Shown piece after piece: positions 1,987-58,556 of a stretch of 64,000 nucleotides of DNA. Source of the DNA: Eledone cirrhosa (lineage: Eukaryota); assembly GCA_964016885.1 (NCBI GenBank), contig OZ024742.1, forward strand, positions 85,498,001-85,562,000, given 5' to 3'. The number at the start of each line of letters is the position of its first letter. Within the stretch, counting starts at the first letter, position 1. A model generated the notes under the pieces. It made no database searches. It saw only the letters and a program-made list of their open reading frames with translations, and was not told where the DNA came from. Both the position numbers and the translations under genes were made by a program.

Positions 1987-4697
1987 GCAGAGCCTTGGTG
2001 GAAGAAACGACTGAGTGGTCAAATCAGGGAAATGAGAAATGACATTGGAAAGCTTGAGTCACTACTGAATGGGACACTAAAAAACATAGACACTAAATAT
2101 AGACTGCAAATAAAGTACAAAACTAGGAGGAAAAAGCTAAATATTATCATAGAGGAACTTAAGCAACGCATTGTGGTAAAGAGTGCAAAAATCAGGCGAT
2201 ACGAGAACAGAGTCAGCCAGTATAGACAGAACTGCATGTTCGACAACAACCAGAAGATGCTATTTGGACAGCTTGAAGGGAAAGAAAGAGGCAACGACTT
2301 GATCCCTGAGGCGGAACAAACTAAAACATTATGGAGAGGAATATGGCAGCAGGATGTTAAACATAATGACCAGGCAGTGTGGATTGAGATCAGTACAGAA
2401 GGAGATCAGTGAACAGGCACAACAACAAACTGATTTGAGTATCACAGTTGAAACTCATAAGGGGCAGGCCAAAAAACTAACCAACTGGAAATCACCTGCC
2501 CCAGATGGTGTGCAGGGGTATTGGATTAAAAACATAACATCCCTCCACCCTAAACTGAACCATGTTCAATGACTGCTTGATGTCAAGTGAGGTACCAGAG
2601 TGGTTGACAAAAGTTACCACAGTTCTGATAATGAAAGACCGAATCAAGGGTAATGATGTTACCAACTATATACCTATCACATGTCTGTCCGTAATGTGGA
2701 AACTGTTGACAAGCATTATGTCTGAGGAAATCTACCATCACCTCCACACAAACAACTTGTTACCGGACGAACAGAAAGGATGCCGAAAGAATTCACGTCG
2801 TACAAAGGACCAGTTACTTATTGATAAGATGGTAATGAGGAATTGCAAGAGGAGACACACTGGTCTTGCCATGGGATGGATAGACTACAAAAATACATTT
2901 TACATGGTGCCTCATTCTTGGATCACCAAAAGCATGGAGATCTTCAAGGTGGCAGATAACATCAGACAGTTGTTGGGCAAAAGTATGAAGTCCTGGGAAA
3001 CAGAGTTAGCATCAACTGGAGAATCCTTGGAAAGCGTGAAGATCAAGAGAGGTATATTCCAGGGAGATAGTCTGTCCCCTCAGTTTGTCCTTGCCCTGAT
3101 GCCCCTGAGCAGTGTACTGCGAAAAGTGAGAGCAGGATACAGGTTGGGAAAGGGAGGGCTTACCCTCAATCACCTCCTCTTCAAGGACGATCTTAAGCTC
3201 TTCGGGAAGAGTGAGAAGGAGTTGGATGTGCTTGTTGACACTGTCTGTATTTTCAGCAATGATATATGTATGCAATTTAGTATTAGCAAGTGTGGAGTCA
3301 TTGTGATGAAGAGGGGGTAAGTTGAGCAGAAGTAACGGAATCCAGGTACCAACAGGTGAAATGATAAAGGAAATTGACTCTGAAGAAGGATACAAGTATT
3401 TGGGCGTTCTCGAGACTGATGACATCAATAACAAACAAATGAAGGAATTCATAAGAACTGAATACATTCGGAGAGGAGTAAGGAGCGTATTAAAGTCACA
3501 TCTGAACAGCAGGAATGCCATAAGTGCAGTAAATTCCCGTGCTGTGTCTATTATTAGGTACAGTGCGGGAATTCTGAGATGAAATGTTGCTGAACAAAAA
3601 GAAATGGATAGGAAGACTAGGAAGCTATTGACTATCTACAACATGTTCCACAATAGGAGTGATGTCGATAGACTCTACTTAAGGAGATCTGAAGGTGGAA
3701 GAGGTCTTATCAGCATAGAGGACTGTGTTCAGATAGAGAAACACAACCTACACAAATACATGACCGACCGTAGTGAGCTAATGCTCACAATTGTACTGAA
3801 GGAGAGAACAATAGACCAGGGGATGTTCAAGGAGGAAATAGCAACAAGGAGGAAGAACAACCTTCATGAAAAATCCCTTCATAGTACCTTCTTTGAGAAA
3901 ACTGAATTCAGAGATGCACAGACATGGAACTGGTTGAAAAGAGGAGACCTTAAAAAGGCTACAGAACGAATGCTAATGGCTGCGCAAGAGCAGGCACTCA
4001 AAACGAAGTGGGTGAAACACCATATTTACAAGGAGCAGGCTAGCCCCCTGCGTAGGATATGTGGAGAGAGGGAGGAGACTGTGGCTCACATTGTATCCGA
4101 GTGTAAACACCTAGCCCAGAATCACTATAAGGGCTGGAGACATGATGTGATGGGAAGGGTGATCCACTGGCACCTATGCAAAGTAAACAATTTACCACAA
4201 TCTGAGAAGTGGTATGAGCATAAGCCAGAGCCGGTATAGAAAACGATCAGGTGAAGGTGCTGTGGGATTTTAGGATACAGACGGACAAGAAACTTGAACA
4301 CAATAGTCTGACCTGGTCGTTGTGGACAAAGAAAAAAGATCGTGCCTGATTGTGGATGTGGCCTGCGCATTCGACACGAGAGTGCAAGAGAAGGAGAGGG
4401 AGAAAATTAACCGATGCCAGGACTTAAAGTGGGAGGTAAAAAGCATTTGGAACTGCCATGAAGTCAAAGTGATTCAGATTGTCATAGGCGCACTAGGGAC
4501 TATCTCAAAAAGTTTCCAGGGATGGTTTAAGAAAATTGGCCCCTTCACGCTTTTTGGAACGCTTCAAAAGGCATGCTTGCTTGGAACAGCAAGAACCCTC
4601 CGATACGTCCTGAATATCTGAGGCTGCAGGTAGTGGCTTGATATTCATTTGAACAAACTTTCCAGTTAACTAACATCAATGACTGAGACTCAAAGAG
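1987..4697 (+). mobile_element. R4/Dong-clade non-LTR retrotransposon (RT, CCHC finger, restriction-like endonuclease), 5'-truncated and decayed
   Basis: [53 protein letters not shown] (RT); RICGEREETVAHIVSEC and RHD; RLE segment D..VVDKEKRSCLIVDVAC..EK; stop at 4621; short 3' UTR; TAA tracts on both flanks. Confidence 0.92.
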
Positions 4698-9554: not shown

Positions 9555-9754
9555 ATATATAATGTAGTTCTATATATAATAGGCACTAGGGACTTCCTTA
9601 TGTAAAGTTAAATTGTACACAGATGGCAGCCCCGATACTAATGTCATTTCCCTCGCACCAATTATATTTACATTTCAGTTTATTGTGAGCTACGTATCTA
9701 ATCAATTTAACTGTTAGTGTAGCGACCGCGTGGTTTTTTAATTATTAATTGTCA

Positions 9755-9983
9755 AAGCTCATCCTTCACGTATAATGTGGCCTCATTGACTATACTTACT
9801 CCAAATTATTGGATTGTTTTTGTTTCATCATGTTATCAATTTGATGAGTGATTATAGTCTGCTCATAAGTATGAGCATACTATAAGCACACATCAAATTG
9901 ATAACATGATAAAACAAACAAAAATCCAATAATTTGGAGTAAGTATAGTCAATGAGGCCACAGTATACGTGAAGGATGAGCTT
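9755..9983. repeat. ~230 bp near-perfect palindrome
   Basis: Arms aagctcatccttcacgtata... and ...tatacgtgaaggatgagctt meet at gctcata-agt-atgagc with almost no spacer. Confidence 0.93.
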
Positions 9984-11014
9984 GGTCTCTCTATATGTAT
10001 GTGTCGGTGTAATGCTAATTCACAAGCTTCTTTCATATTCGTGTATGTGTATCTAGGAATGTATGTTTGACGTTATGAACTTTTTCTGTATGTCTTTTTT
10101 TCTCTTCTCTCGCGCATAATTAGGTGGTTTTTAACTTATTTTCCATAATGTGTGTGTGGGTGTGCCCGGAGTCTGTGTGTCTGTGTATCATTTTAAATTT
10201 GTTATTATATATGCGTATATTCACCTCCGTAGCTATTATTCCATTCATGCTTTCAATATGTGGTGCTTCCTTAATCTGTCTGAGCACTGCATCTGTTCTA
10301 TGTTTAGATATTTTTTTATTTCGATATATTCTTGTGCGATCACTTGTTGTAGTTTGGCAAGTTTGTCATACACAAGTCATTTATTTTCGTTCTGGAGTTC
10401 TCTTCAATTCTCCTCGCCTTTGTAATGTATATCAAGCCGTCAACCCTGTATAAGTGTTGGTCACCTTTCTATATTGTCCCTCTCTACATCTTATGCTATG
10501 AACTCCAATATTAGTTTTACAGTATAGCTGTGAGCTCACTTTGGAAATCGTTAATCTGTATTAATATTATAATTGCAAATTTAATATATTTCCTCTATTA
10601 GAATTCAGAAGGGCATATGCAATTATCTCATGGGTACCAACTCCATATATTGATATAAAAGGTTTTGCTTCGTTTATAAAAAAAATCCCGGTAAATGTAT
10701 AGAGATAATTATTGCCGGTGTTTTAAGTGTACTTATTTGAGAAAATATTATTAAAAGCAAATAACCTGTGAATAATGTGGAGATTATGTGAGAATAAACT
10801 AGATTTTGATTAAATCTATATTAAAGAAAGTTAAAAACAGGAGACAGAGGTGTGTGAAAAGAGGAAAGTAGAGGAATACCAGCCCGTAGAAATAGGGAAG
10901 CTGAGTGGCATTCATTTGGGAGTAGTAGTCAAAGAGAATTCAGGAGAGAGATAAAACTGTCTTGAATTGTAGTATTTTAGAAAGCGTTATATAAAAGGCA
11001 CGGTGTATGGAAAC

Positions 11015-12278: not shown

Positions 12279-14455
12279 TGTGTTGTCACAGGAGTCGATC
12301 GAGGTAGGGGTGGTTATTCTGCAGGGGTTCGTTTACTGTTGGCTTGGTGTGGTGGGGATGCCGTCCTTAGGGCTAGAGGCAAGTTCCCATCCTAATGTGT
12401 TGTTATTGTCCATATAGCTTGAGGAAGGTCCCGGCCCTGAGGTGTCTACATGTCTCGAAGAAGTCAGTCCCGAGGTTTAACAGGATGCTTCCACCTCTGA
12501 GTATCTCGAGGGTCTCACTCAGACATAGTTTGCAGAGGCCAGATCCTCCTTTATCAGGTGGTACTTTCCTGATATGGGACCAGGACAGAGGGTGCCCCTG
12601 ACCAGCTTGAGCTTCCATATTAGTTCGGAAACAGCCGTACTTTTCCTTTTGTCCTCCCCGTTAAATGAATGGCGATGGTTATACTATCGGTTTTTAAAGC
12701 TCGTTGATGTGGATCCTATGTAAAGGTGTTCAGAGTCGGGTGGTTTTACTCTATATGCGTATATTAATTTCTTTCTAAGGCATTCATTACTAAGGGGTCA
12801 TAATTTGGGGTTTCTGCAGTTGCAGGAGGTGGTCGACCTCCGCGCGCCTAGTGTGGGGTTCCCATTACTTATTATATGGTAGTCCTCCCCCGGGCCCGGT
12901 CGAGGTCCATGGGTATGTTTGGGTTTCCAGGGTGAGCACTGGGACCACACATTTTTCCCTCAACATGTTCTTTACGGCCGCTGAGTAGGCTGGATTGTAC
13001 CACGTGATTTTTCTGTGTCTACTCCTATGTCGGTGCGTTGTGCGTGCTATGGGGCTGTTGGGGAGTTGTTGGGTTGCTAGTGGTTCCCACATTGCTGCTT
13101 CCCCTTTGGGCGCTATGTGTTTTGCTAACATCCCGGCTCGTGTCTGTGGGGTGGTTGTTGCCAACGCTGGGAGCTCTACAATGGGATGGTCCTCCATCAG
13201 TCCCTCTTCGTGTCTTGCGGTTGGGGGCATCGAGCCCGGGGTGGTTAGTATCACCCCTGAGGCCGCTACTCGTATTGTGTTTCCTCCCATGGTTATGCGT
13301 ACACGTACCCCTCACATGGTGTTTAATTGTTTCCACTCTGCCTGTATTGTTAGTGCCCCCCCTCCCGGATACCGTGGGCCATCCCCAACAGGGCGCCTCG
13401 GATTATATGATATATGTTAGCCATGCGCGGCTTTATTTAGAGCTTCTTTGTAATATTCTGCGTTGCTATCGAAGATTTCCTTATTTGCGGACAGGCTGGA
13501 GATCCTGTCCGAGACACTCTTCACTACGGCCTTAATTGTAGATCTTGACTTGGCGTTAAAATATACCAGTCTCTCGTTGGGCTTGTAGGGGTAGTATTGT
13601 TCGGTCTTCAGGTTTAGGGTGGTGTCTAGGAAGTTAACTACCTTTCTATTTGGGTCTAGTTCGATACTGAGCCCCTTGTTCTTAAAGAAATCCCGAATAC
13701 GCATCTTCATTCTCTACACCATAATGGTGCTGTGCTCATAGACTGTGAAGAGAGCTTCGTCACGATACAATCCACCGCCCAGGCTAGGGATTTCTTCTTT
13801 TATCTGCTTCAGCAAGAAGAGCACAACCAGGTCCGTTACCTGTGCAGAGTCGCTGGAGCTCATCGTGATGTCAAAGTTATTTTGCCAATCATTCCTGGTC
13901 GAAAGGTCTCCACCGAAACGGATCAAGGTCATACGGGCGGCGTGGATGACGCCCACCTCCTCTCGGGTTAGGTCCGTATTGGACACCGCTAAAATAAGGG
14001 TCTTATTTAGTACTATGTGTGAGATTGAGGAGTAGTAGCCTGCGATATACAGTTGGATAACGCTGCTCCTTCTTTTCCCAGGTAGTATCTTAAACCATTC
14101 TATTAACTCTCCCGTGCATGACCATTGCTGTAATCTAGTTTTTTCCGAAGCTTGGGAAAATCCTATCTAGTATGCTTTTACTGACGATCCCTAGGTCTGA
14201 TCTGGAGGGGGCTATTAGTCTAACCGGGAGGTCGAACTCAAAGTTTGGCTTGTGAAGTGTAAGGGTAATCCGCGGCTTCCTTGGTTGGTATGGGGCCGTC
14301 TGTCCTCTATGCCGAGTCCGTATATAATCCTGTAAGCTGTGGCGTTGATCTCATCCAGGGTAAATCCAGGTATTTTTTGGTAGCATTTCCTCATTTCCCT
14401 AGAATTAGCTTATTATACAGTTCAATGTCCATGTTGTAGAGTTTGTTGGTTTTCA
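12279..14455 (-). mobile_element. Penelope-like element A1 (RT plus C-terminal GIY-YIG), decayed
   Basis: FDITMSSSDSAQVTDLV, GGLYRDE, VNFLDTTLNL, YFNAKS, KITWYNPAYS, CNC..., YIGST, CKLCLSE. Confidence 0.92.
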
Positions 14456-16375
14456 CCACCCAGAAGTCAGGAGTACCTCAGACACCTGGGAAATGCGATT
14501 ACAAAACGTTAAGAGACAACTGGAATACTTGTCCATGCCGATAAATCAAACTGGATATCGCAGGCTACTACACCTCATTCTCGCCCATAGTACTAAATAA
14601 GGCCCTTATTTTAGCAATGTCCAATACGGACCTAACCCGAGAGGAGGTAGGCCTCATCCATGTCGCCCGAAATACTTTGATCCGTTTTGGTGGAGACCTT
14701 TCGACCAGGAGTGATTGGCAAATAACTTTGACATCATGATGAGCTCCAGCGACTCCGCACAGGTAACGGACCTGGTTCGGCTCTTCCTGCTGAAGAAACT
14801 GGTATATATTAACGCCAAGTCAAACTACCCTAGATCCAAAATTAAGGCCGTAGTGAAGAGTGTCTCGGACAGGATCTCCAGCCTGTCCGCAGATAAGGAA
14901 ATATTCGATAGCAACGTAGAATATTACAACGCAGCTCAAAATAAACGGGGCATGGCCAAAATATATCATATAATACGGGGCGCCATGATGTGGATGGCCC
15001 ACCGGACACCCCGACCCATGGTATCCGGGAGAAGGGGAACCCTAACAATACAGGCAGTGTGGAAGCAATTAAACACCATAAGCCCGACACCACAACATTG
15101 GTGAGGGAGACGCGTACGCATAACCATGGGAGGAAACCCAATACGAGTAGGAGACTCGGGGGTTACACTAACCACCCCGGGCCTGATGCCCCCAACCGCA
15201 AGACATGAAGAGTGACTGATGGAGGACCATCCCATTGTAGAGCTCCCAGCGTGGGCTACAAACACCCCACAGATACGGGCCGGGAAGTTATCAAAACACA
15301 TAGCGCCCAAAGAGGAAGCAGCAATGAGGGAACCACTAGCAACCCAACAACTCCCCAACAGCCCTTGGCACGCTCAACCCACCCACATAGGAGTATACGC
15401 AGAAAAATCACGTGGTACAATCCACCCTACTCAGCGGCCGTAAAGAACAGCTGTCTCGCTCGTTCTTTAGAGCATTAGATAAATGCTTGCGAGGGACCAT
15501 AAATACCGCAAGATCTTCAACAGACACACCGTGAAGCTCTCGTATTCTACCACGCGAAATGTGTCCCAGCACTTAGCTAGCATCAATAGGGGTAGACTTA
15601 AAAACCACACACAGCCAGAAGCTGGGAATAAAAGCACACAGCAGACCCAGGGCCCCCCCACCGGGTCCGGGGAAGGACCACCATATAATACGTAACGGGA
15701 ACCCCACACTAGGCACGTGGAGGTTGACTACCTCCTGCAACTGCATAAAACACGAATTATGCCCCCTAGTAATGAATGCCTTAGGAAGAACTTAATATAC
15801 GCATGAGGAGTAAAACCCCCCAACTCTGAACACCTTTACATAGGAGCCACATCAACAAGCTGTAATGACCGATGGTATAACCATAGCCATTCCTTTAATA
15901 GGGAGGACAAAGGGAAAAGTACAGCTCTTTCCGAACTGATCTGGAAGATGAAGCTGGACAGGGGTACTCTCTGGCCTGGTCCCAAATCAGGAAAGTACCA
16001 CCTGATAAAGGGGGATCTGACATCTGCAAACTATGTCTGAGAGAGATACTCAAGATAATCAGAGGTGGAAGCAGCCTGATAAACGTCAGGACTGGCTTCT
16101 TCGGGACATGTATAAACCTCAGAGCCGGGACATTCCTCAAGCTATATGGACGGTAACACATATTGGGATGGGAACTTCCATCTAAGCTATAGGGACTTCT
16201 GCGGAACATGTAGACACCTCAGGGCCGGGACCTTCCGCGAGCTATATGGACAATAACAACACATTAGGATGGGACCTCCCTTCTAGCTATAAGAACAACA
16301 GTCCCACCACACCGAGCCCACGGTAAACCACCCCTGCACAATCACCTGCATCGATCGACTCTTGTGACAACACAG

Positions 16376-19729: not shown

Positions 19730-22558
19730 TCAATAATGTAGTGATAATATATCGTCACGTTAGAGATGAACAGCGTGCGTGTAGGTTTGCTCAACGAGTA
19801 TAAATTATATTCCGGAGAAAATGTAGAAAAGATGAATATAAAATGAAAGTACTTTTATAAAGAAATGTATTAGGTATTGGCATATGTTTCTGTAACAGAC
19901 GGAATACCTATGTATCGCTGCTTGCGTAATCATATAATGTTAGCAAGTATTCGATAGCAAATCAGAAAAATCAAAGTATTTATATTAGTTGTAAGAAATG
20001 AAGAAGAGAAGGGATAGTAAATGACAGCTGGCAATTCAATTTGCTGGTAAACAAGTATATAGAAAAGTTTTTAATGAGAATATAATGAGTATATTGCTTA
20101 TTTTATCTAAATAAGAATTTTTGGGAGTGCCTATTTTAATCTATATTTGACCAATTGAACAATGGACAGGACTGGATGTTTGGTGTAGTAGTATTAATAC
20201 ACATATATATAAAGTGTCAAGTAAGGAAGAGAGAAATTTTCACTGCTACTGTATAACAACAATGCTGGTATATGCATTAGGGAATTGAATTAAGAAATCT
20301 CATTTTATCTATAGCAGTTTATATTAAATGGTAAAGAATAGAATAGTTGATAGAATTAAGACTAATAGAGAATGTTAATATGTATTTTGACAATCAAACG
20401 GAGATGGAGACAGGCGTTCAATCCTGGTAGCGTTTGTAATATGAAAATGTAGATTTCAAACGATGGTTACAGTATAACGATCGCTCTATTCTGTTATTTA
20501 ATAAAATATTTTTGGATTTCATAATACAAAATATTTCCATATTACACAATTTACCAAATTCCTGTCCTTGGATTATGCTATTATTTCCCATTTTAGGCTA
20601 AATTGTTGGTTATTTTGGCGCAGCTGCCAAGCCTTGTCTGCGAGTGTTGTTACATAACGCTGGTTTTCATGTTTTATCGAGTAACGATGTCTATAAAGGC
20701 GAGATTTGAAGGAGGTAACTGTATACTTCACATAGTACCACTTCTGTCTACACGATTCGATAGTACATTTGTATATGATGTTGCGTTCAAGACAATGATT
20801 GTTCAACGGACACATTCCCGGTTGGACACAGTTACAGTTATAATTATGCGTTGTTGTATTACCATGAATGGGTTGATGAGGTTGCTTAGGCATGACGGGA
20901 TGTTGTTTGTTGTTTTGTGATGTTATAGCCGATGTTTTACGTGTATTGTTATGTGCTGGAAAGCGTTTATTCAACCGTTTTGCGTTAAGCTTTTTTATAT
21001 GTTGTTCAATATTAGGGGCGGTTGAATATGAAAGTCGAATAGTGTTAGGGTTTAAGATTGTATTATACTTATGTGATGTTGGAAAATGTTTTTTAACTAA
21101 TCGAAAGAATTGTGAGGGTAGATTGGTTTTAATAGAGTTGTTATAGACCAGGTTGTACCATATATACTCTTTACATCGCCTTCTGTTTGGTGGTGTGCGA
21201 CTATTTGTGTGTCTATTGCGGTAGTGTATGTATGTTGGTGATTGTATGCTATTTCTACCTCTTTGAAAATTATTTTGGGTGTTTTGGTGATCGTCGACTA
21301 TATACTCCATATTATCTAGGTGTCCAGCCTTCCTAAGTGCATGATCATAATATTCGGCATGTTCTTTGAAGGTTTGCTGGTTGGACGACAGGCGGGAGAT
21401 TCTAAGGGAAATATTTCTAGGGAGGGATTTAATTATAGAGGGTGGATGGTTAGAAGCCGCATTTACATATTTAAGGTTCTCATTTAGTTTATGTAACGGT
21501 TTAATCGTTTCTGTATTGAGCTTCAACGTAACATCAAGGAAATTAACCTCTTTGATATTATATTCAAACGTAATATTTAATCCTAGTTCCTTTCTAATAT
21601 TTTTACGCATCCTTTCTAAATTGTGGTTATTCATATGCTTAACTAATAGGAGCGCATCGTCACGGTAGAGTCCACCGTGGACATCCTTGAATTTTCCTTG
21701 TAGTCTGTGGGTGATATAAATACCCACAAGATCAGTTACTTCCGCCGAATCATTGGAACCCATAGTTATATCAAAATTAGAAGGTCTATCTTTGCCGACC
21801 TGTAGCTATCATCAAATATAACAATAGTTTTCCTCGCTTCCATAATAATACTAATTTCATTATCCGAAAGGTCGGAGTTAGCCTTAGCGAACGAAAGGGC
21901 TTCATGCATAGTATCAGTGAGATTGAAGAATAATGCTCATCAATATCGAACTGAATAAATTTTGATTTCTTCTTATCAGTAATGCTATTAAACCATTTTA
22001 TTGCCTCATGGGTGTTACGGAATAGTTTAATATCTACTTTAGCCTTAACTTGGGGGATAATTCTGTCTAATACATATTTGTTAATTTTGCCTGTATCAGA
22101 TTGAGAGGGCCATATAAGTATAATGTTAGGGTCAGTATCGAAGTTTACCTTATGGTCCTTCGGGTTGAAGGATGGTGTAGCTGGTGTTAAGGGTTGCCTT
22201 CTATCGTCAATACAAAGTTTTAAACAATTTCACATACCGAGTTGTTGATGTTTCTAGGTGTAGCTTCATTAGTTTTCTTGTATTTTTTATTATGCAATTC
22301 CTTACGGATGAAGTTATTGTAAGTATCCACATCCATGGTATGTACGTTTGTTGTTTTCTCTGCTGTAACAATAATTCCATTGGCGTTTTTTAGATTATTG
22401 AGCAGTGCCGTGATGCCATTCTGTAGTTTATTGTTTTTCCGTTTTGTAAATTTGATCTCCATAATCGTATCCATCAGGTTCTGTTAAAATGCGTCCAAAA
22501 GTGGATTTGAGGGTGGGTTTTTGTTAGATTTAAATCCAAATTTATCCTTGTTAAGATC
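19730..22558 (-). mobile_element. Penelope-like element B, 5'-truncated
   Basis: ORF 20573-21763 with MGSNDSAEVTDLVG, GGLYRDD, IWYN, CNCVQPGMCPL and IIYKC..YYV; upstream FGFKSNKNPP and FIQFDI; pLTR homologous to that of element E. Confidence 0.93.
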
Positions 22559-24363: not shown

Positions 24364-24454
<91 letters not shown>

Positions 24455-24457
<3 letters not shown>

Positions 24458-27400
24458 AGAAAACACAGGTAAGGATTAAGAATAGGATTTTATCCAGGTA
24501 TTTACGACCGTTTCATCGGTAAGTGCAACCTTACATTGCTATACTGCAAATATCAGCCACTCAATGATAAGTGTTGTTCTTTCCAAATTTTCAAAATAGT
24601 AAGTTACTCTTAAAAAAAATTCTTAATATATAGAGAAAAACATTTTTTGGGAATTGTATTTACTAGTATAGAGAGAGAGGAAGAGGAATTAGAAAGGGTG
24701 GGGGGGGGGGGGGGGGGGGCAAACAGAATAGTATAGAGAGAGAGGAAGGGGAGAAGAGTCAGGAAGTAGAGTGACAAACTGAGATGGAGGGAGGTTTAGA
24801 GGTGGAATGATTCCTTGATCAGTTTTGATACGTAGACTTCATGTCGTCAATTTAGAGTGTAGTGAGTTAAAGAGAATTAAATTGTTTATAGTGGGAGGGA
24901 TGGATAGAGAGAGAGGAAGAGATATAGAGAGATAATTATATATATAAAAAAAATAAAATAAAAAATAAAAATAAAGAAGAGGGGGGAGAAAGAAGAAGAG
25001 AAAAGATAGCCAAAAATGGATAGAAAAGAAAGGAACTAAACGAAAAGAAATAGAAAAGGAATGAAGGAGAAGGGAGGGATATAGTTATTGGTTTTTGTGG
25101 GTTATTAAAGGGGTTAGATACAATAAGAGGGTAGAAAGTCTAAGTATATGCAGTTTGTCAGGTGCTAGTAGTAAGAGGTTAAGGGTTCGATTTGCACTTG
25201 TAGTGCGAACACTTTTCTTTGAGTCTATGGTTACAATAAATTGATCCTTCGATTTTATTGTTGAGTAACTTATTCTTCGAACTGAAAATCTGGAACAGTT
25301 GAAGGTCACATAATCGACAGCTTCTCATACCACTCCGATATGGGGGCGCGTTAGATAATTGTTTCCACTTCAGGGTATATTAATGTTTACTTTCCCTCAG
25401 TTGCAAGGTCTTGTTTGCAATGGTAGTTACATAACGATGTTGGGAATGTTTCATTGCGTAACGGTGTGTATACCAACGGGCTTTAAATGTATTCGTAGTC
25501 GCTCCGATGTAATACCATTTCTGGTTGTCTGATTCTACGGTGCATTGACAAACCCGGTTCGACTGCATACATTAATTATATAATGGACAGGTTTCAGGTA
25601 GGTGGCAGTTACAATTCTTGTCATGGGCAACTTTGGCATTATCGGTGGGCTGCGATGCCTGTACAAGTGTGTTACGTTTTGTTTGCCTATTAGTGGGTGG
25701 TTGTTTATTAGATATTATGTTGTGTTCAATGATGATTGTATTGTTATTGTTATAAATTTGTGTTCTGGTGTTGTTATGTATCTTTTTAGCAGTAAGCATC
25801 TTAATGTGTGCCTCTATGTTTTGTGCCGTGGAGTAAGATAGTCTAATAGATTTAGTGTTAAGGATTTTGCTGTATATATGTGATATGAAAGTGCTTATTT
25901 ATTATTCTAAAGAAGGTAGAGCGTAGGTTAGTACTAAAAGGTGTTAAATATGGGGTTGTACCAAATACATTTTCTACTGCGTGACTTGTTTGATTTCGGT
26001 GTTGTATTTCTATTTACAGTATAATTTGTAGTTTATTCGTAAATGCGTGTGTGCATGTGTTTCTGAAGTTTGTGTTATGCGTGTTCGTGTGCGCTTTGCG
26101 GAGGCTCTCATCTATATATTCTACTCTAGCTGAGTGGCCTGCCTTGTCTAGTGCGGTATTGTAGTATTCTGCATGTTCCTCGAAGATTTGTCGGTTAGGC
26201 GAGAGGCGGGAGATCCTAAGGGATATGCTGCGTGGAATGGATTTAATTATGGATAGTGGGTGGTTTGAGTTACGGTTGATGTATGCTAACTTTTCATTAA
26301 TCTTGTGAAAAGGTCTTATAAGTCCCGTATTTAGGTTAAGCGTCGCGTCTAGAAAGTCTACTATTTTAGTGATATACTCATACGTTATGCTAAGGCCTAG
26401 TTTTCCGAGAGTCTTTCTAATATTCTTACGGAGTCTTTCTATGCTCTGGTTATTTAGGTTGTTAACTAAGAGAAGGGCGTCGTCTCTGTAGATTCCACTG
26501 TGAAGATCGCTAAACTCACTCTGTAAACTATGTAAATACCTACTAAATCTGTGACTTAAGCCGAGTCGTTAGCCGCCATCGTGATGTCAAAGTTATTTAC
26601 TCTATCCTTACGTTCCCAATAGGCGTTTTCAAATGTAATTAATATTTTCCTAGCAGCTAATATAATGTTTATCTCGTCGCCTGTTAGGTCAGAATTGGCT
26701 TTGGCGAATGCTAAGGCTTTATCCAAGGTGTTGGGGGATATATAGGAGTCATACTCGTTAATGTCAAATTGTATAAACTTAGATACTTTTTTGTTAGCTA
26801 TATAGTTAAACCAATTAATTGTTTTGGTAGCGTTACCCCATAGTTTAATCACTAGTTTATTCTTCATTTGTGCTATCACTCTGTCTAATATATGTTTACT
26901 AATTTTCCCAATGTCTGATTTGGACGGGCATATAAGACTAATTGTGGGGTTATAATCAACATTTACCTTGTGGTCCTTGAGATTAAATGTGGGGGTACAT
27001 GGCCTAAGTGGCTCCGTTCTATCGTCTATTCCTAGGTGTTTGACTATATTGTATGCCTCGTTGTTGATGTTTATCAGTGCCGCCTCGTTAGTTTTTTTGA
27101 TTTCCTATGTAATTCTTTCCGTATGAAGCTATTGTACGTGTTAATATCCATCGTATACACATTTGAGGTTTTGTCCTCTTTGACAATAATGTCATTGGTA
27201 ATTCGCAGCTGTTTTAGGAATGTATTCATGTCATTCTGGAGTTTATTATTCCTCCGCTTTTTGAATTTGATATTCATAATCATCCTCAGTAAGTCCTGTT
27301 CAAAGGCATCCAGTTGAGGGTTGGTAGGTGGGTTCCTACAGGATTTGAAGCCGAATGTTTCCGTGTTGTATTCCACGGTGCGACCGTTACGTCCTTTGTC

Positions 27401-27492
27401 GAAATGGAAAGTTGTTCGCTGTATCATCACGAGGGTATAGCGGCCACTCAATGATAATTATTTTTTATAAATATATTTATCTCTCTATATCT

Positions 27493-27528
<36 letters not shown>

Positions 27529-28089
27529 CCTCCCACTATAAACAATTTAATTCTCTTTAAAATCACTACTCTCTAAATCGACGACATGAAGTCTACGTAT
27601 CAAAACTGATCAAGGAATCCATCCACCTCTACACCTCCCTCCATCTCAGTTTGTCACTCTGCTTCCTAACTATTCTCCCCCTTCCTCTCTCTCTATACTA
27701 TTCTGTTTGTCCCGCAACTTTCTATTTCCTCTTCCTCTCTCTCTATACTAGTAAATACAATTCCAAAATAATGTTTTTCTCTATATATTAAGAACTGTTT
27801 TTAAGAGTAACTTACTCACTATTTTGAACATTTGGACGTGAACAACAATTATCATTGACTGGCTGCTATTTTCAGTATAGCAATATAAGGTTACACTTAC
27901 CAATGTAACGGCCGTAAATACCTGGATAAAATCCTTTTCTTAATGCTTACCTGTGTTTTCTCTTTTATACTCCAAGGTTGAACGGAATTCTTACAAACTT
28001 GTGGAGTTACCCCTAACCGTATGTTGAAACCGTCCATGAAACTGGCTTTCTTAACCACGAACTGGATCACATTAAGCAGTTTCCTGCTT

Positions 28090-28092
<3 letters not shown>
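24455..28092 (-). mobile_element. Penelope-like element C with ~500 bp inverted pLTRs, between (TA)n tracts
   Basis: Decayed RT-GIY-YIG at 25300-27360 (FIQFDI, FDITMA, GIYRDD, CNCHLPETCPL, YYIGAT); 24455-24950 is the reverse complement of ~27463-27967. Confidence 0.93.
24499..24598 (-). ncRNA. Hammerhead motif with a 73-nt branched stem II and U3:A8 core
   Basis: TATT TTGAAAA [t TTGGaAAG...CTTaCCGA t] GAAA CGGTCG TA AATA; the sister arm (~27820-27920) has palindromic CGGCCG. Confidence 0.55.
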
Positions 28093-28137
<45 letters not shown>

Positions 28138-28181: not shown

Positions 28182-28236
28182 ACTGCTATATATATTTCAG
28201 TGACAGCCATCTTTGGCTGTGACCTCTTCAGGCAGT
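28182..28236 (-). ncRNA. Minimal type I hammerhead ribozyme motif
   Basis: ACTGC CTGAAGA GGTCACAGCCA-aaga-TGGCTGTCACT GAAA TATATA TA GCAGT; 5-bp stem I, 11-bp stem II with 1 mismatch. Confidence 0.8.
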
Positions 28237-28904: not shown

Positions 28905-29644
28905 TGATATGAAATCGTGTGTGGAAACAAATATTGTTATACTTGGGGAGGTTCATATTTGTGTAATAATATTGCCAGAATTAATAACAGAACACACTCA
29001 TGTGTTTGTTGTTATTGTGCGTGTGTATTCATTTATTTATTTATTCATACTTCTCTTAGGTCAGTATTGTTTGTTTGGGTGTTGGTGTTATTCCATTCAT
29101 TTCTTAAGAAAAAATGAATGGAATAACAACAACACCCAATCAAACAACACTGACCTAAGATAAGTATAAATAAATAAATAAATACATATACAAGCACAAA
29201 AACAACAAACACATATAAACACACACTAGTAAACTGAGATAGAATACAATACCCAATACACAGTCACCCAAACACGAACACACATCAAACACTATACACA
29301 CACGTAAACGCATGCGCAGAGAAGACAAACAAAAATAAAATAAAATAAATAAATAAACAGACTAAATAAAGATGTCGTAGGCATACAATACAACGGGAGA
29401 AACATAATAGCACCACTGACGATGTTGCAGATGTGCAACGAAAGAACTTTGTTAGACTATATATATGTGTTTGTGTCTATATTATATCTGTATTTTTTAC
29501 CGTTGGTCAGTCAATGGTAACATTGAGGATCGAATAAATTAAATTAACCGATATAAAAGACACATAAGCGAAAACCAACCAAAAAGTGAGTGTGTTCTGT
29601 TATTAATTCTGGCAATATTACTGAACATATATGACCCTCCCCAA

Positions 29645-32037: not shown

Positions 32038-32098
32038 TTTCATTATACATATTTCAAGGACACCAAAGCAAATTATGGTTCGCTTTCATCAGATAAAA
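32038..32098 (-). ncRNA. Hammerhead motif (inverted twin of 32221-32281)
   Basis: Reverse complement of the motif at 32221-32281. Confidence 0.65.
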
Positions 32099-32220: not shown

Positions 32221-32281
32221 TTTTATCTGATGAAAGCGAACCATAATTTGCTTTGGTGTCCTTGAAATATGTATAATGAAA
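32221..32281 (+). ncRNA. Type I hammerhead motif
   Basis: TTTTAT CTGATGA [30 nt, AAG..CTT] GAAA TATGTA TA ATGAAA; the copy near 7570 has palindromic TACGTA. Confidence 0.65.
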
Positions 32282-32410: not shown

Positions 32411-35271
32411 AAACCTCTGGTAATGAAGTAATTATATTGCATTGTTTATTATACATTAAATTTAGCTCTGGTACTTACATAGAGCACTCTTTACTCCTAT
32501 GACTTTTTCAATTCTCAACGGAAACTTCAATACTTATACAGCTCCCAATGAATGATCGTAGCATATTCTACATCTTTATAAGATTGGCACCTTCCAGCTT
32601 TTTTCAAGTCGAGCACACTTCAGTTAATAGGATTTTAAACCAATACTGAACATGAATAAATATCCTTTGGATTACTCTATCAAGAATATCCCAACACCTT
32701 CTAAAATTCCTACACGAAAATGCTGATAGACAAAGTAGAGAAAGTTGTTAAAGGAATCAGATGAAAAGCTTTGATTCTCGTTGGACACTTTAACACGGAC
32801 TGTATGGAACATTTTGATATCAAAACTCATAAATACCCGCAAAGCGTAAAAGATATGACCGCTTTTGAATTAGACTTAGTTAATTTAATCAACAATATCA
32901 AATTTCGTAAGTACTCGAACTCTTTTCAATCTAATCTATCTAATGATATTTCAATATTCAAATCTTCTAAAAATAAGTTCATTTTCTCCGACAAAACTAA
33001 ACACTTATACGAAGTTAATAATAATTTACATGACCAACTCTTAATAGATAACATCACCTCTAAATACCAAATAGCTAATATAAACACGCATAATAATATA
33101 TATAAGGAAGCTAAAAATTAGCTAGTTCTTTAAAATTGGACAGAAAAACTTGCTAAAGTTAATGCCTATAACACCATCAAAGATCACAAACCTGACTTTA
33201 TTAATCGTCCTAGTTGTAGATTAATAAACCCTGCTAAGACCGATATCGGTCTTGCTAGCAAACATTTTTTAAATAATATAAACACACAGATTAGAAGTAA
33301 GTCTGAATTACTCCAATGGATAAACAGCTCTTCCGTAGTACATTGGTTTAATAATATTAAAGATAATAGTTCTAGATTCACCCAATTTGACATTGTAGAT
33401 TTCTACCCGTAAATTACTCAGCCTCTTTTAGCGAAAGCCTTAAATTTCGCTAGAAAGTTTACCAATATTCCTGATATTGAAGAGAATGTCATCTTGCATG
33501 CTAGAAACACTCTACTCTTTACTAATAATGACACTTGGGTAAAAATATCTAACCCATAGAACCCATTCGATGTCTCAATGGGTTCTTTTGACAGTGCTGA
33601 TGTTTGTGATTTAGTCGGCCTATTCTTCCTACACACACTTAAAGCAAAATTCCCTAACCATATTTTTGGGGTTTATCGCGACGATGGTCTAATACTTTCC
33701 CATACCACCATAGGCCATAACTTAGATAGATTAAGGAAATACTTAATAAAAACCTTCGCTAGTTTAAATCTTAAAATTGCTATTGACACTAACCTTTCCA
33801 ATGTTAATTTTCTAGATATAAACCTAGATCTGCCTACTGCTTCTTATAAACTGTACCATAAACCTAGTGAAAATTTAAAATATATAAATAAAGGCTCTCG
33901 TCATTCTCCTATAGTTTTAAAAACCTTATCCCTAATATTAGCCGTAGGATCTCCACCCTCTCTTCCTCAGAAGCTATTTTCAATAAGGCATGCCGCTACT
34001 ATAATAAAGCCCTTCAAAATAGCGGATTTAGCGAACCGATTAAGTACATACCCAACAATACTAACTCCTTTAAACATAATAATAGGAAAAGAAAAATAAT
34101 TTGATTCACACTCCCCTACTCTCTAGCAGTTAAAACTAATCTAGGCAAAACATTCCTAGAGCTCTTAGATAAACATTTCCCTAGAACACATAGATACTAT
34201 AAGGTCTTCAATAGAAACTGTCAAAATTAGCTACTCCTGCGGTCCCCCTACTAAATCTTATATCATCAATAACAAAACACCCAGAAAACATCAAAATTGG
34301 TCCTCTAGAGTCAAAAGTGAATGCCCATTACAAGGTAAATGCAAGACCAAAGCCATCGTATATGCGGCTAAATTGACAACCATCAGCAACAACCTACCAG
34401 CCACCAGCGTTATTACTCACATGTCGCATCTTTCCGACATCCAGAAAAAAGATTTACAACAGCTCTGGCTAGCAGAATATGGGATTTGAAAGACCAAGGT
34501 ATCCAATATAAATTGCATTGGTCAATTTTGAACCAATCTAAAGCATATGCAAGAGGAACAAGAAGATGCACACTCTGCATAAGGGAACATTATTGGATTT
34601 TACAGAACCTTAAATCACCAAAAACCTGCCTAAATACAAAAACAGAAATTTTCACCAGTTGCCCACACATGAAATCACACTTGCTTTCCAGCTCATATAA
34701 ACTTAACTCACTTTCAGATACTTATGCCCCATAAACTCTTGTTCTTCACTTTCCTTAAATTATCCTCTTTACAGACTACTCTTTCTGATTTACTTTCATT
34801 TTTAACTTTATTTTCATTTTTATTTTCATTTTCACTTCACATCCACCAGTGACCCTCCCCCCTTCCTTTTTGATTCACTTACCTAATATCTTCACATTCC
34901 ACATTTTACTTCACCATTTTCTTTGACTACTTGATACAACTGTCACTTGCGTTTTCAACCCCAGATATATTCTGTTGTTTCGCAGCCGCTTTTATATTTG
35001 TATTTCTTTTTTTCATATGGCTGGTTTATAATTTGTGTCTATGCGTGTGAGTGTGCATGCGCCTCCGTATGTGTGCGTGTGTGTGTCTATATGTGTGAGC
35101 ATGTGTGTTTTTATATCTATATTTATACGAGCGTGTGTATGTGGGTGAATGTATGTGTATAAGTATGTGTATATATATATGTATATGTATATGTATGTAT
35201 GTGTGTGTATGCATATATGTATACATATAGTCGCGTACGTACGTGTGCTTAGATATACGTGTGCCGATATA

Positions 35272-55971: not shown

Positions 55972-56091
55972 TTATTGACACGTGTTTCTATAACAGTTAC
56001 GTAACCTAAAACAGCTGCTATCTACAAACTTTTAGTTATGCAGACATTCAATATTTCAATGTTATTATTTACTGTCATTTCATCAGAATAA
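55972..56091 (-). ncRNA. Type I hammerhead with intact core and a 73-nt insertion in loop II
   Basis: TTATT CTGATGA a ATGACAGT [73 nt] ACTGTTAT a GAAA CACGTG TC AATAA. Confidence 0.7.
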
Positions 56092-57047: not shown

Positions 57048-58490
57048 TTATGTAATATTCGGCTTGTAGTGGGAAAAAAGGGTTTTAGTTCTGTGACGGC
57101 AGAATAATGTTCGTTCAATTCTGTTATTCAGCAGTTTCTTCTTGTGTGTGATTATGTAATAAATCTCAAGATTACACAATTTGCAGAAATTTTGGCTCCT
57201 GGAAAAGCTTTGGGTTTTAGCTAATTTCTCCCACTTTAGGGTAAACTTTTGATCGCTATCCCTGAGCGTCCAAGCTTTTTCTGCTAAAGTTGTTACATTT
57301 CTTTGGCTCTGGTGTTTTATTGAGTAAGAATGCCTATACAATCGAGATTTAAACGATGTTGCCGTTGATCCCACGTAATACCACTCGTTGCCTCCGGATT
57401 TAATGGTACACTTATAAATAATATTTTTTTCCAGGCAGTTATTGCCGAGGGGGCAGTTGTCAGGATAGGTGCAGTTACAGTTGTGTACGTTGGGTTTTCT
57501 CTGGAGTAGTATTGCGGACGAACTTAGGTGTGGTTTATTTATGTTCTGTAGTGTATTGTCTACTGTTTTTTTTGTGTTCTTTGTACTTAAGTTCTTAGTG
57601 TTTTCGTTTAACCTTCTAGTATTGATCTTTTTTATGTGTTGTTCAAGGTTTAACGCTGTAGAGTATGACAGTTTTATAGTGGTAGGGTTTAGGATTTTGT
57701 GGTATTTGTGTGATGTGGGAAAATGTCTTTTAATTATTTTAAAGAAGAGTACTGGTAAATTTGTACTAATGGAACTATTGTATTCGGGGTTATACCATAA
57801 GTATTCTTTGCATCGCTTTCTATTAGTTTTGTTTGTTGGTTTACTGGTGTGCATACTATGGTAGTAAGTGTGGTTTGGTGTTGTGTTATTATATCTACCT
57901 ATGTGGGATTTATTTTGGGTGTTTTGATTGTTCCCATCTATGTACTCTATTTTGTTGAGGTAGCCTGCTTTACTAAGGGCGTTATCGGAGTACTCGGCGT
58001 GTTCCTTAAATACTTGTATGTTAGAAGATAGACCCGAGATTCTAAGGGAAATTTTTTTAGGGATAGATTTAATTATAGAGATGGGGTGGTTAGACCCAAC
58101 ATTTACGTATTTGAGATTTTCATTCAATTTATGAAACGGTTTAATCAAACCAGAGTTTAAATTGAGTGTGACATCCAGGAAGTTAACTACTTTAAGGTTG
58201 TATTCATATGTTATAGTTAGTCCTATTTCGAGTAGTAGTTTTCTTATATCTTTGCGTAGTTTTTCTAGTTTTTGGTTATTAAGGTTTTTAGCTAGGAGGA
58301 GAACATCGTCGCGGTATATTCCGCCGTGGAGATTGCTGAATTTTTCCTGGAGTCTAAAGGCGATAAATAACCCCGCAATATCAGTTATTTCCGCCGAATC
58401 TTTAGAGCCCATTGTTATATCAAAGTTAGAGGGTCTATCTTTACGTACCCAATAACTGTTCTCAAATTTGACTATAGAAACACGTGTCAT
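57048..58490 (-). CDS. PLE reverse transcriptase-GIY-YIG polyprotein, N-terminally truncated (480 aa)
   Basis: FDITMGSKDSAEITDIAG, GGIYRDD, VNFLDVTLNL, LWYNPEY, CNCTYPDNCPLGNNC, IIYKC..YYVGST, CKLCNLE; the first ~5 codons come from the inverted pLTR. Confidence 0.9.
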   Translation of the reverse strand: MTRVSIVKFENSYWVRKDRPSNFDITMGSKDSAEITDIAGLFIAFRLQEKFSNLHGGIYRDDVLLLAKNLNNQKLEKLRKDIRKLLLEIGLTITYEYNLKVVNFLDVTLNLNSGLIKPFHKLNENLKYVNVGSNHPISIIKSIPKKISLRISGLSSNIQVFKEHAEYSDNALSKAGYLNKIEYIDGNNQNTQNKSHIGRYNNTTPNHTYYHSMHTSKPTNKTNRKRCKEYLWYNPEYNSSISTNLPVLFFKIIKRHFPTSHKYHKILNPTTIKLSYSTALNLEQHIKKINTRRLNENTKNLSTKNTKKTVDNTLQNINKPHLSSSAILLQRKPNVHNCNCTYPDNCPLGNNCLEKNIIYKCTIKSGGNEWYYVGSTATSFKSRLYRHSYSIKHQSQRNVTTLAEKAWTLRDSDQKFTLKWEKLAKTQSFSRSQNFCKLCNLEIYYIITHKKKLLNNRIERTLFCRHRTKTLFSHYKPNIT

Positions 58491-58556
58491 TAAATTCCTG
58501 TTATAGAAACACGTGTCAATAAATTCCTTTCAACTAAACTGTATCCATTCAAATCT

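What the first reader, a model, noticed from the sequence alone, without database searches (positions are those of the whole stretch)
24499..24598. Second expanded hammerhead (73-nt multiway junction) with compensatory U3:A8 core in PLE C
Seen: TATT TTGAAAA..GAAA CGGTCG TA AATA with basal helix ttggaaag/cttaccga, then caac/gttg, then three small hairpins (cactta-tcat-tgagtg; ctg..cag; tata-GCAA-tgta). The inverted arm (~27820-27920) has tata-GCAA-tata and a perfect palindrome CGGCCG, although its core is mutated. Known: C3-G8 is a Watson-Crick pair in the active fold, and U3:A8 swaps retain activity. Inference: a sequence-dissimilar insert in the same position as in element E suggests the enlarged domain II is a clade-wide feature.
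Basis: partly seen in the sequence, partly recalled or inferred. Interest (0 to 1): 0.78.

Follow-up and report, generated by a model that had tools for sequence, protein, structure and literature searches.

The report
Long-stemmed hammerhead ribozyme in Hydra retrotransposons
A sub-family of jumping genes in this animal genome carries about 5,000 copies of a hammerhead ribozyme motif whose normally tiny second stem has grown into a 70-92-base hairpin with a conserved inner module; it is predicted to cut RNA only as a pair and likely docks the element's own protein, but neither has been tested.

Summary
The motif is real: minus strand 24598-24499, stem I TATT/AATA, core UUGAAAA...GAAA, 73-nt domain II, palindromic stem III. 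It sits in the 3' pseudo-LTR of a dead copy of a Hydra-clade Penelope-like element (PLE). The genome holds 4,897 such motifs (control 0); 98.9% keep a matched 3:8 pair.

Three corrections. (1) Domain II is not a three-hairpin junction but one irregular rod: -21.1 versus -12.0 kcal/mol, with compensatory changes across seven families. (2) The inserts of elements C and E share a near-invariant module, and the six families with a usable ORF form one RT clade. (3) The enlargement is not Hydra-wide: published Hydra ribozymes and a short-stem Hydra family here have domain II of 26 nt or less.

U3:A8, the basal U·U and the palindrome are published PLE features. The 70-92-nt domain II is not in the papers searched and lies beyond the published descriptor. 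Unrelated 60-94-nt domain II forms occur in other repeats here. Cleavage and expression are untested. Verdict: new structural variant of a known ribozyme.

The parts
24499..24598 (-). Type I hammerhead motif with 73-nt domain II (family C)
24588..24598 (-). Stem I 5' strand TATT and core U3-U4-G5-A6-A7-A8-A9 (U3:A8 in place of C3:G8)
24515..24587 (-). Domain II: U·U at 10.1/11.1, basal helix, irregular zone, middle helix, conserved module, apical hairpin; one long rod
24538..24572 (-). Conserved module: 5' GAGUG (24562-24558) facing UAGC (24541-24538), predicted A·G mismatch plus bulged purine between G-C and U-A pairs; conserved A (24572) and U (24570) on the 5' side
24499..24514 (-). Core GAAA, self-complementary stem III (A-CGGTCG-T), GUA triplet with predicted cut between 24503 and 24502, stem I 3' strand AATA
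24450..24951 (-). 3' pseudo-LTR part shared with the inverted copy; ends about 45 nt past the predicted cut, against (TA)n
25179..27439 (-). Broken Hydra-clade RT plus C-terminal GIY-YIG ORF of element C (stops, frameshifts, 5' deletions)
27437..27459 (-). 23-nt remnant of the domain II insert joined through TAT microhomology to about codon 33 of the ORF
27461..28093 (+). Inverted 5'-truncated copy with a core-damaged hammerhead (27820-27920) and the long tail, ending against (TA)n
55973..56090 (-). Related hammerhead of element E: C3:G8, 91-nt domain II with the same module
19875..19961 (-). Decayed hammerhead of element B: 5' core deleted in this copy; intact family copies have C3:G8 and a 90-nt domain II

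Best explanation
This is the type I hammerhead motif in the pseudo-LTR of a Hydra-clade Penelope-like retrotransposon, whose domain II is a 70-92-nt covarying rod with a near-invariant inner module; it is predicted to cleave only as a dimer, and the module likely serves as a docking site for the element's own RT-endonuclease protein. Shown: position in the pseudo-LTR; Hydra identity; full core with a compensated 3:8 pair; palindromic stem III; paired basal and middle helices; module conservation; one RT clade; genomic 3' ends at two sites downstream of the predicted cut. Inferred: two copies in a tandem transcript pair through stem III and cut after N17 (GUA in C, GUC in E and B, mostly GUU elsewhere), giving the downstream unit a 5' end about 210 nt before the start codon (family E). 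Reverse transcription starts 40-50 or 155-185 nt past the 3' ribozyme, so that copy must be uncut when copied. The rod coaxially extends helix II and would hold the protein next to these start sites or gate cleavage.
For: Hydra motifs RWK, DKT, CxCx5C, CxxC, CxH and (TA)n targeting (criteria in PMC8557442 section 11). 4,897 motifs versus 0 control; 55 mismatched at 3:8. On the plain MAFFT alignment of 32 motifs the basal helix is 85.7% paired with two-sided changes at 6 of 6 pairs, the middle helix 83.9% with 4 of 6; slid controls 33-50%. Refined model on 103 distinct motifs: 86.6% paired, 20 of 27 pairs with two-sided changes, slid 30-55% (alignment fitted to a model). Single-hairpin minimum-energy fold in 28 of 32 representatives and 71 of 80 anchored motifs. 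Nine insert columns are 92-98% conserved in 97 motifs although no search pattern named them, across families whose proteins are 49-69% identical to E's. Inner stem III positions, free in the patterns, stay self-complementary: 99% and 86% paired versus 87% and 54% shuffled. Only 53 shorter copies exist with this stem I; almost all are one-off deletions with no recurring end points. Family E is young: 142 scored matches at 98-100% identity, many with 785-aa open frames. Two end clusters at +45-55/+175-190 (C) and +40/+155 (E). Precedent: the anole PLE ribozyme cuts only with the element's protein, and uncut RNA is the main template (PMC11167929 passages); metazoan PLE ribozymes are weak and dimer-dependent (PMC4209133).
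Against: No cleavage, probing or protein-binding data. RNAalifold on the 32-row alignment predicted no pairs at all. The apical helix as first drawn was only 32-59% paired, and the better register was chosen after seeing the data. The module pairs U-A and G-Y hardly vary, so they are not proven by covariation. Cells count related sequences; the independent lineages are about seven. Folding z-scores are weak in several old families. Stem I is only 4-7 bp of mostly A-U and was fixed by my patterns; the family-C stem III duplex is weak (-5.8 kcal/mol). The short-stem Hydra-type family is far more numerous (loose pattern), so the rod is not needed by Hydra elements in general. Nothing here distinguishes protein docking from an RNA tertiary role.
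Confidence: 0.55

Rival explanations
1. The rod is an RNA-only helper: its module and the conserved upstream A and U form a tertiary contact (a short pseudoknot, or a contact with stem I flanks) that props up a ribozyme with very short stems I and III.
For: The conserved A and U upstream are complementary to the module's U and A: four stacked pairs are possible, 87-94% paired at three of them, in a geometry like an H-type pseudoknot. Stem I is short.
Against: The one variable pair shows no covariation (46% paired versus 48% shuffled, p 0.72; A·G in 42 of 97). The module's U and G have partners within the rod. The module lies about 20 nt from the core, farther out than the usual loop II contact (recalled).
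Confidence: 0.25
2. The core has kept its shape but no longer cuts; the whole structure serves as a fold for packaging or template recognition.
For: All sampled genomic copies run past the cut site. PMC4209133 found low activity and left other functions open. In the anole element, cleavage was dispensable for insertion in vitro.
Against: The 3:8 pair switched as a pair at least twice, N17 is never G in the C-type families' alignment context sampled but this was fixed by the patterns, and the free palindrome positions covary; both covariations fit the active dimeric fold.
Confidence: 0.12
3. Domain II is the three-hairpin multiway junction drawn by the first reader.
For: The stems can be drawn in this copy; on the 32-row alignment they reach 63.5% paired, above slid controls.
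Against: 9 kcal/mol worse than the rod, pair probability 0.00. Hairpin 3 is 54% paired; hairpin 1 rests on invariant columns and on changes private to this copy.
Confidence: 0.04
4. The insert is an intron or neutral passenger DNA, removed or ignored before the ribozyme folds.
For: PLEs carry introns, and one abuts the Drosophila virilis ribozyme (PMC4209133).
Against: No recurring precise deletion among the 53 shorter copies; no GT..AG ends common to the families; helices covary and the module is conserved.
Confidence: 0.04

Closest known systems
Hydra-clade PLE hammerheads (Craig et al. 2021, PMC8557442, File S2)
   Same: Type I, in the pseudo-LTR; extra base on each side at the foot of helix II, very often U·U; palindromic stem III; same RT-EN signature and (TA)n target.
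   Different: The 26 listed Hydra motifs have helix II of 3-7 bp with 3-10-nt loops and C3:G8. Here domain II is 70-92 nt with a conserved module, and about a quarter of copies (26 of the first 100 listed) use U3:A8.
Minimal PLE hammerheads, including the Schistosoma mansoni Cercyon U3-A8 variant (Cervera and de la Pena 2014, PMC4209133)
   Same: U3-A8 covariation, short helix I, palindromic helix III, predicted dimer cleavage.
   Different: Helix II there is 7-8 bp with a highly conserved G10.1-C11.1; their descriptor caps stem II at 7 bp and loop 2 at 10 nt, so these motifs could not have been found.
PLE-X1 hammerheads of Selaginella (Craig et al. 2021, File S2)
   Same: PLE ribozymes marked non-canonical, with enlarged loop 2 (about 30-35 nt; domain II about 50 nt).
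   Different: Other clade, single families, shorter, no module described.
Anolis Poseidon PAc hammerhead (PMC11167929)
   Same: Ribozyme upstream of two RT start sites that define the genomic tail; uncut RNA is the template.
   Different: Short canonical stem II overlapping the start codon; here the start codon lies about 210 nt downstream (family E).
Non-LTR retrozymes (PMC7229834; bioRxiv 10.64898/2026.07.22.740005)
   Same: Family G1 found in passing is a non-coding head-to-tail repeat of about 730 bp with a type I hammerhead.
   Different: Element C itself is an autonomous-type PLE with an ORF; G1 has a 94-nt domain II.

Membership tests
Type I hammerhead ribozyme | Core YUGANRA next to stem I, GAAA, and NUH before stem I 3' strand | tested here: met
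   family alignment; core bases were fixed by the genome patterns but also hold in the DNA-similarity set
Type I hammerhead ribozyme | Watson-Crick pair 3:8 | tested here: met
   4,842 of 4,897 are C-G or U-A; 66 of 113 in chance matches
Type I hammerhead ribozyme | Helix II closing the core | tested here: met
   6 of 6 basal pairs with two-sided changes
Type I hammerhead ribozyme | G10.1-C11.1 directly at the core | tested here: not met
   U·U in 71 of 97, A·A in 11; the same extra bases occur in published Hydra motifs
Type I hammerhead ribozyme | Loop I-loop II tertiary contact | tested here: inconclusive
   no conserved distal stem I found; conserved bases in domain II have no proven partner
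Type I hammerhead ribozyme | Rfam hammerhead model match | tested here: not met
   no hammerhead family at E up to 10 in the window or in six short loci
Type I hammerhead ribozyme | Self-cleavage at N17 | not testable with these tools
   needs an assay
Dimer-type PLE hammerhead | Short self-complementary stem III | tested here: met
   101 of 122 fully palindromic versus 12 of 113 chance matches; covariation
Hydra clade of PLEs | RWK, DKT, CxCx5C linker, CxxC and CxH, C-terminal GIY-YIG | tested here: met
   full family-E ORF; DKT, CxCx5C-like linker and EN remnants in element C
Hydra clade of PLEs | (TA)n insertion, inverted 5' copy, optional tail | tested here: met
Hydra clade of PLEs | Groups with published Hydra proteins on an RT tree | tested here: inconclusive
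   published consensus proteins were not available to the tools; homologues include a Hydra vulgaris protein at 34%, tree
Kink-turn / bulged-G (loop E) motif | Tandem GA after a 3-nt bulge, or AGUA/GAA strands (consensus recalled) | tested here: not met
   module reads GARUG/YAGC in the alignment; only a loose likeness to a bulged-G motif

The most novel reading that the evidence does not exclude
Hydra-type retroelements in this genome have repeatedly turned hammerhead domain II into a 60-94-nt accessory domain, and in the C/E/B/F3-F7 sub-clade it is a dedicated, possibly pseudoknotted, binding module by which the telomerase-related PLE reverse transcriptase recognises its RNA and switches the ribozyme. 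That would make it a natural protein-gated hammerhead and show that published descriptors miss a whole size class of genomic ribozymes.
Probability: 0.25. Interest if true: 0.8.

Novelty: new variant of a known kind. Interest (0 to 1): 0.55.

Why it matters
How PLEs use their hammerheads is open: they cut poorly alone and one needs the element's protein. Here a young, intact family (E) carries a ribozyme with a large, covarying domain II whose inner bases are nearly as conserved as the core, which gives a concrete place to mutate. Natural long domain II scaffolds are also of use for ribozyme-switch design.

Tried and rejected
Rfam: no hammerhead hit. Pfam: no family for the PLE ORF pieces. RNAalifold on the 32-row alignment: no structure. 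First motif-anchored count picked the wrong AG in families C and F5 (middle-helix rows discarded); the redo still mis-anchored family B. Pseudoknot: complementary but no covariation. Distal stem I extension: none conserved. Metagenome scan: 114 loci, none with an RT hit, pairing at chance level; used as a control. Sequencing runs: no RNA holder listed; laying contigs and DNA reads showed no joint inside the insert and says nothing on expression. Earlier findings of the scan: none. Families F4 and F7 could not be put on the RT tree: their sampled loci held little or no ORF. G1-G3 score only 12-31 bits on the rod model, through the core; alignment folding of G1 gave a different base than single-sequence folding. 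Literature: nine searches found no long-domain-II PLE hammerhead. Lunse 2017 and Arkhipova 2017 were not held, and one supplement of PMC4209133 was not searchable; these could hold such variants.

Full report
Observation. A strict scan of the window finds only this motif and the one at 56090-55973 (element E). The inverted arm at 27820-27920 is a damaged copy. Rfam gives no hammerhead hit.

Setting. The motif is near the end of a 3' pseudo-LTR. Upstream on the same strand lies a broken RT plus GIY-YIG ORF (27439-25179), then an inverted 5'-truncated copy (27461-28093), all between (TA)n runs. The intact family-E protein has RWK, DKT, CxCx5C, CxxC and CxH, the marks of the Hydra clade in PMC8557442 (section 11 read). 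Element C shows DKT and the same layout. This copy is dead: its 5' end is a 23-nt scrap of the insert joined by microhomology to the ORF. In a tandem family-E locus the ribozyme lies about 210 nt before the start codon.

Is it more than chance? A pattern with Y3 and R8 free and a 62-92-nt gap finds 4,897 places and 0 with the reversed control. Of these 43 are C·A and 12 U·G, so 98.9% are matched. Stem I and the core were fixed by the pattern, so their invariance is no evidence. The same pattern in metagenomes gives chance hits and serves as control: matched 3:8 in 66 of 113, at least 4 of 5 basal pairs in 11 of 113, full palindrome in 12 of 113, against 92 and 101 of 122 distinct genome motifs. 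The motifs fall into seven families by my sorting (C, F5, F3, F4, F7, E, B). On a tree built without columns 3 and 8, the C-G state needs three changes, at least two forced by strong branches.

Fold of domain II. The window insert folds as one irregular hairpin at -21.1 kcal/mol (z -3.4). 28 of 32 representatives fold as a single hairpin. Against this: RNAalifold found no consensus on that alignment, and my first apical register was poor. A refined register, chosen after looking, gives 86.6% paired on 103 distinct motifs in a model-fitted alignment.

The module. In 97 motifs (six poor matches dropped from 103), nine insert columns are 92-98% conserved, none named in any pattern. They form 5' GARUG facing YAGC 3', read as G-C, A·G, a bulged purine, U-A, G-Y, plus an A and a U on the 5' side. 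The module is present in E and B, so the C and E inserts are most likely homologous although BLAST does not link them.

How far does the trait reach? Nine protein rows from families C, F5, F3a, F3b, E and B form one clade (FastTree 1.00; SH-aLRT 100; rows aligned on E's coordinates, which may favour the grouping; F4 and F7 unplaced). A Hydra-type family with a 12-nt domain II falls outside, and short forms dominate the genome (45,597 hits to a loose pattern, control 2,079). The 26 Hydra motifs in File S2 of PMC8557442, including one from Octopus bimaculoides, have 3-7-bp helix II and often the same basal U·U (supplement part 2 of 59 read). So the rod marks a sub-clade. A last pattern with other stem I pairs (788 hits, control 149, first 100 listed) revealed further repeats with Hydra-like cores and unrelated long domains: G1 (94 nt, predicted three-way junction, in a non-coding 730-bp tandem unit), G2 (60 nt) and G3 (64-67 nt). 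No ORF could be tied to them.

Mechanism. Stem III is too short to stand alone and stays self-complementary at positions the patterns left free, as in dimer-cleaving PLE ribozymes (PMC4209133, parts 1-2 of 4 read; PMC6765202 passages). Copies end at two sites past the predicted cut, matching the two RT start sites of the anole element, where the ribozyme cuts only with the protein and uncut RNA is the template (PMC11167929 passages). Shortened copies are rare one-off deletions that did not spread (53), which argues against an intron and fits a needed insert. I therefore take the rod as a likely docking module for the element's protein on a dimer-dependent ribozyme (0.55), ahead of an RNA-only tertiary helper (0.25) or a non-cutting fold (0.12). 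Cleavage, dimerisation and binding are all inferred.

Novelty. U3:A8, the basal mismatch and the palindrome are published. The descriptor of PMC4209133 allows at most 7 bp and a 10-nt loop (supplement passage). The largest PLE domain II I saw in print is about 50 nt in Selaginella PLE-X1. Nine library searches showed no 70-90-nt domain II in PLEs, but two key papers were not held and one supplement could not be searched. Also seen: passages of PMC10085705 and PMC7229834 and part 1 of 5 of bioRxiv 10.64898/2026.07.22.740005.

Noticed in passing
L444:2900-4241 (minus), L447, L416-L455 (family G1): Non-coding, (TA)n-targeting head-to-tail repeat of about 730 bp, retrozyme-like, with a type I hammerhead whose 94-nt domain II is predicted to be a true three-way junction (up to -33 kcal/mol); unrelated in sequence to family C; driver RT unknown.
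   Followed up: partly
L436-L440 (G2); L423, L441-L443 (G3); L432: Further hammerheads with 60-nt, 64-67-nt and 94-nt domain II, CANNTG palindromes and 4-5-bp stem I; no ORF in the sampled flanks.
   Followed up: partly
window 57048-58529 (-); L265: Family E looks recently active: 142 scored matches at 98-100% identity, many with intact 785-aa frames and tandem arrangements; the best test case.
   Followed up: partly
L147-L176, L234: Very abundant short-stem hammerhead family (12-nt domain II, tens of thousands of hits) tied in one locus to a Hydra-type ORF about 44% identical to E; stem I appears to have an internal loop.
   Followed up: partly
L265:2860-2780 (-) and tails of families C, F3, B: A donor-like GTRMGT motif recurs in the tail between ribozyme and start codon; in family E a GT..AG stretch of about 70 nt precedes the ORF, a possible 5' UTR intron as in Penelope. 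No RNA to test.
   Followed up: no
window 32040-32096 (-), 32223-32279 (+), 28183-28235 (-): Other hammerhead-like motifs with 26-30-nt domain II and palindromic stem III in short repeats.
   Followed up: no
window 12401-16158 and about 33000-34700: Two more decayed Hydra-type PLEs (36-40% identical to E) outside the long-stem clade; no hammerhead found at their 3' ends by my scan.
   Followed up: partly
window 9752-9985 and 29065-29149: Long near-perfect inverted repeats that give spurious microRNA-family hits.
   Followed up: no
window 2559-3320 (+): RVT_1 reverse transcriptase fragment of another retroelement type (Pfam E 3e-16).
   Followed up: no
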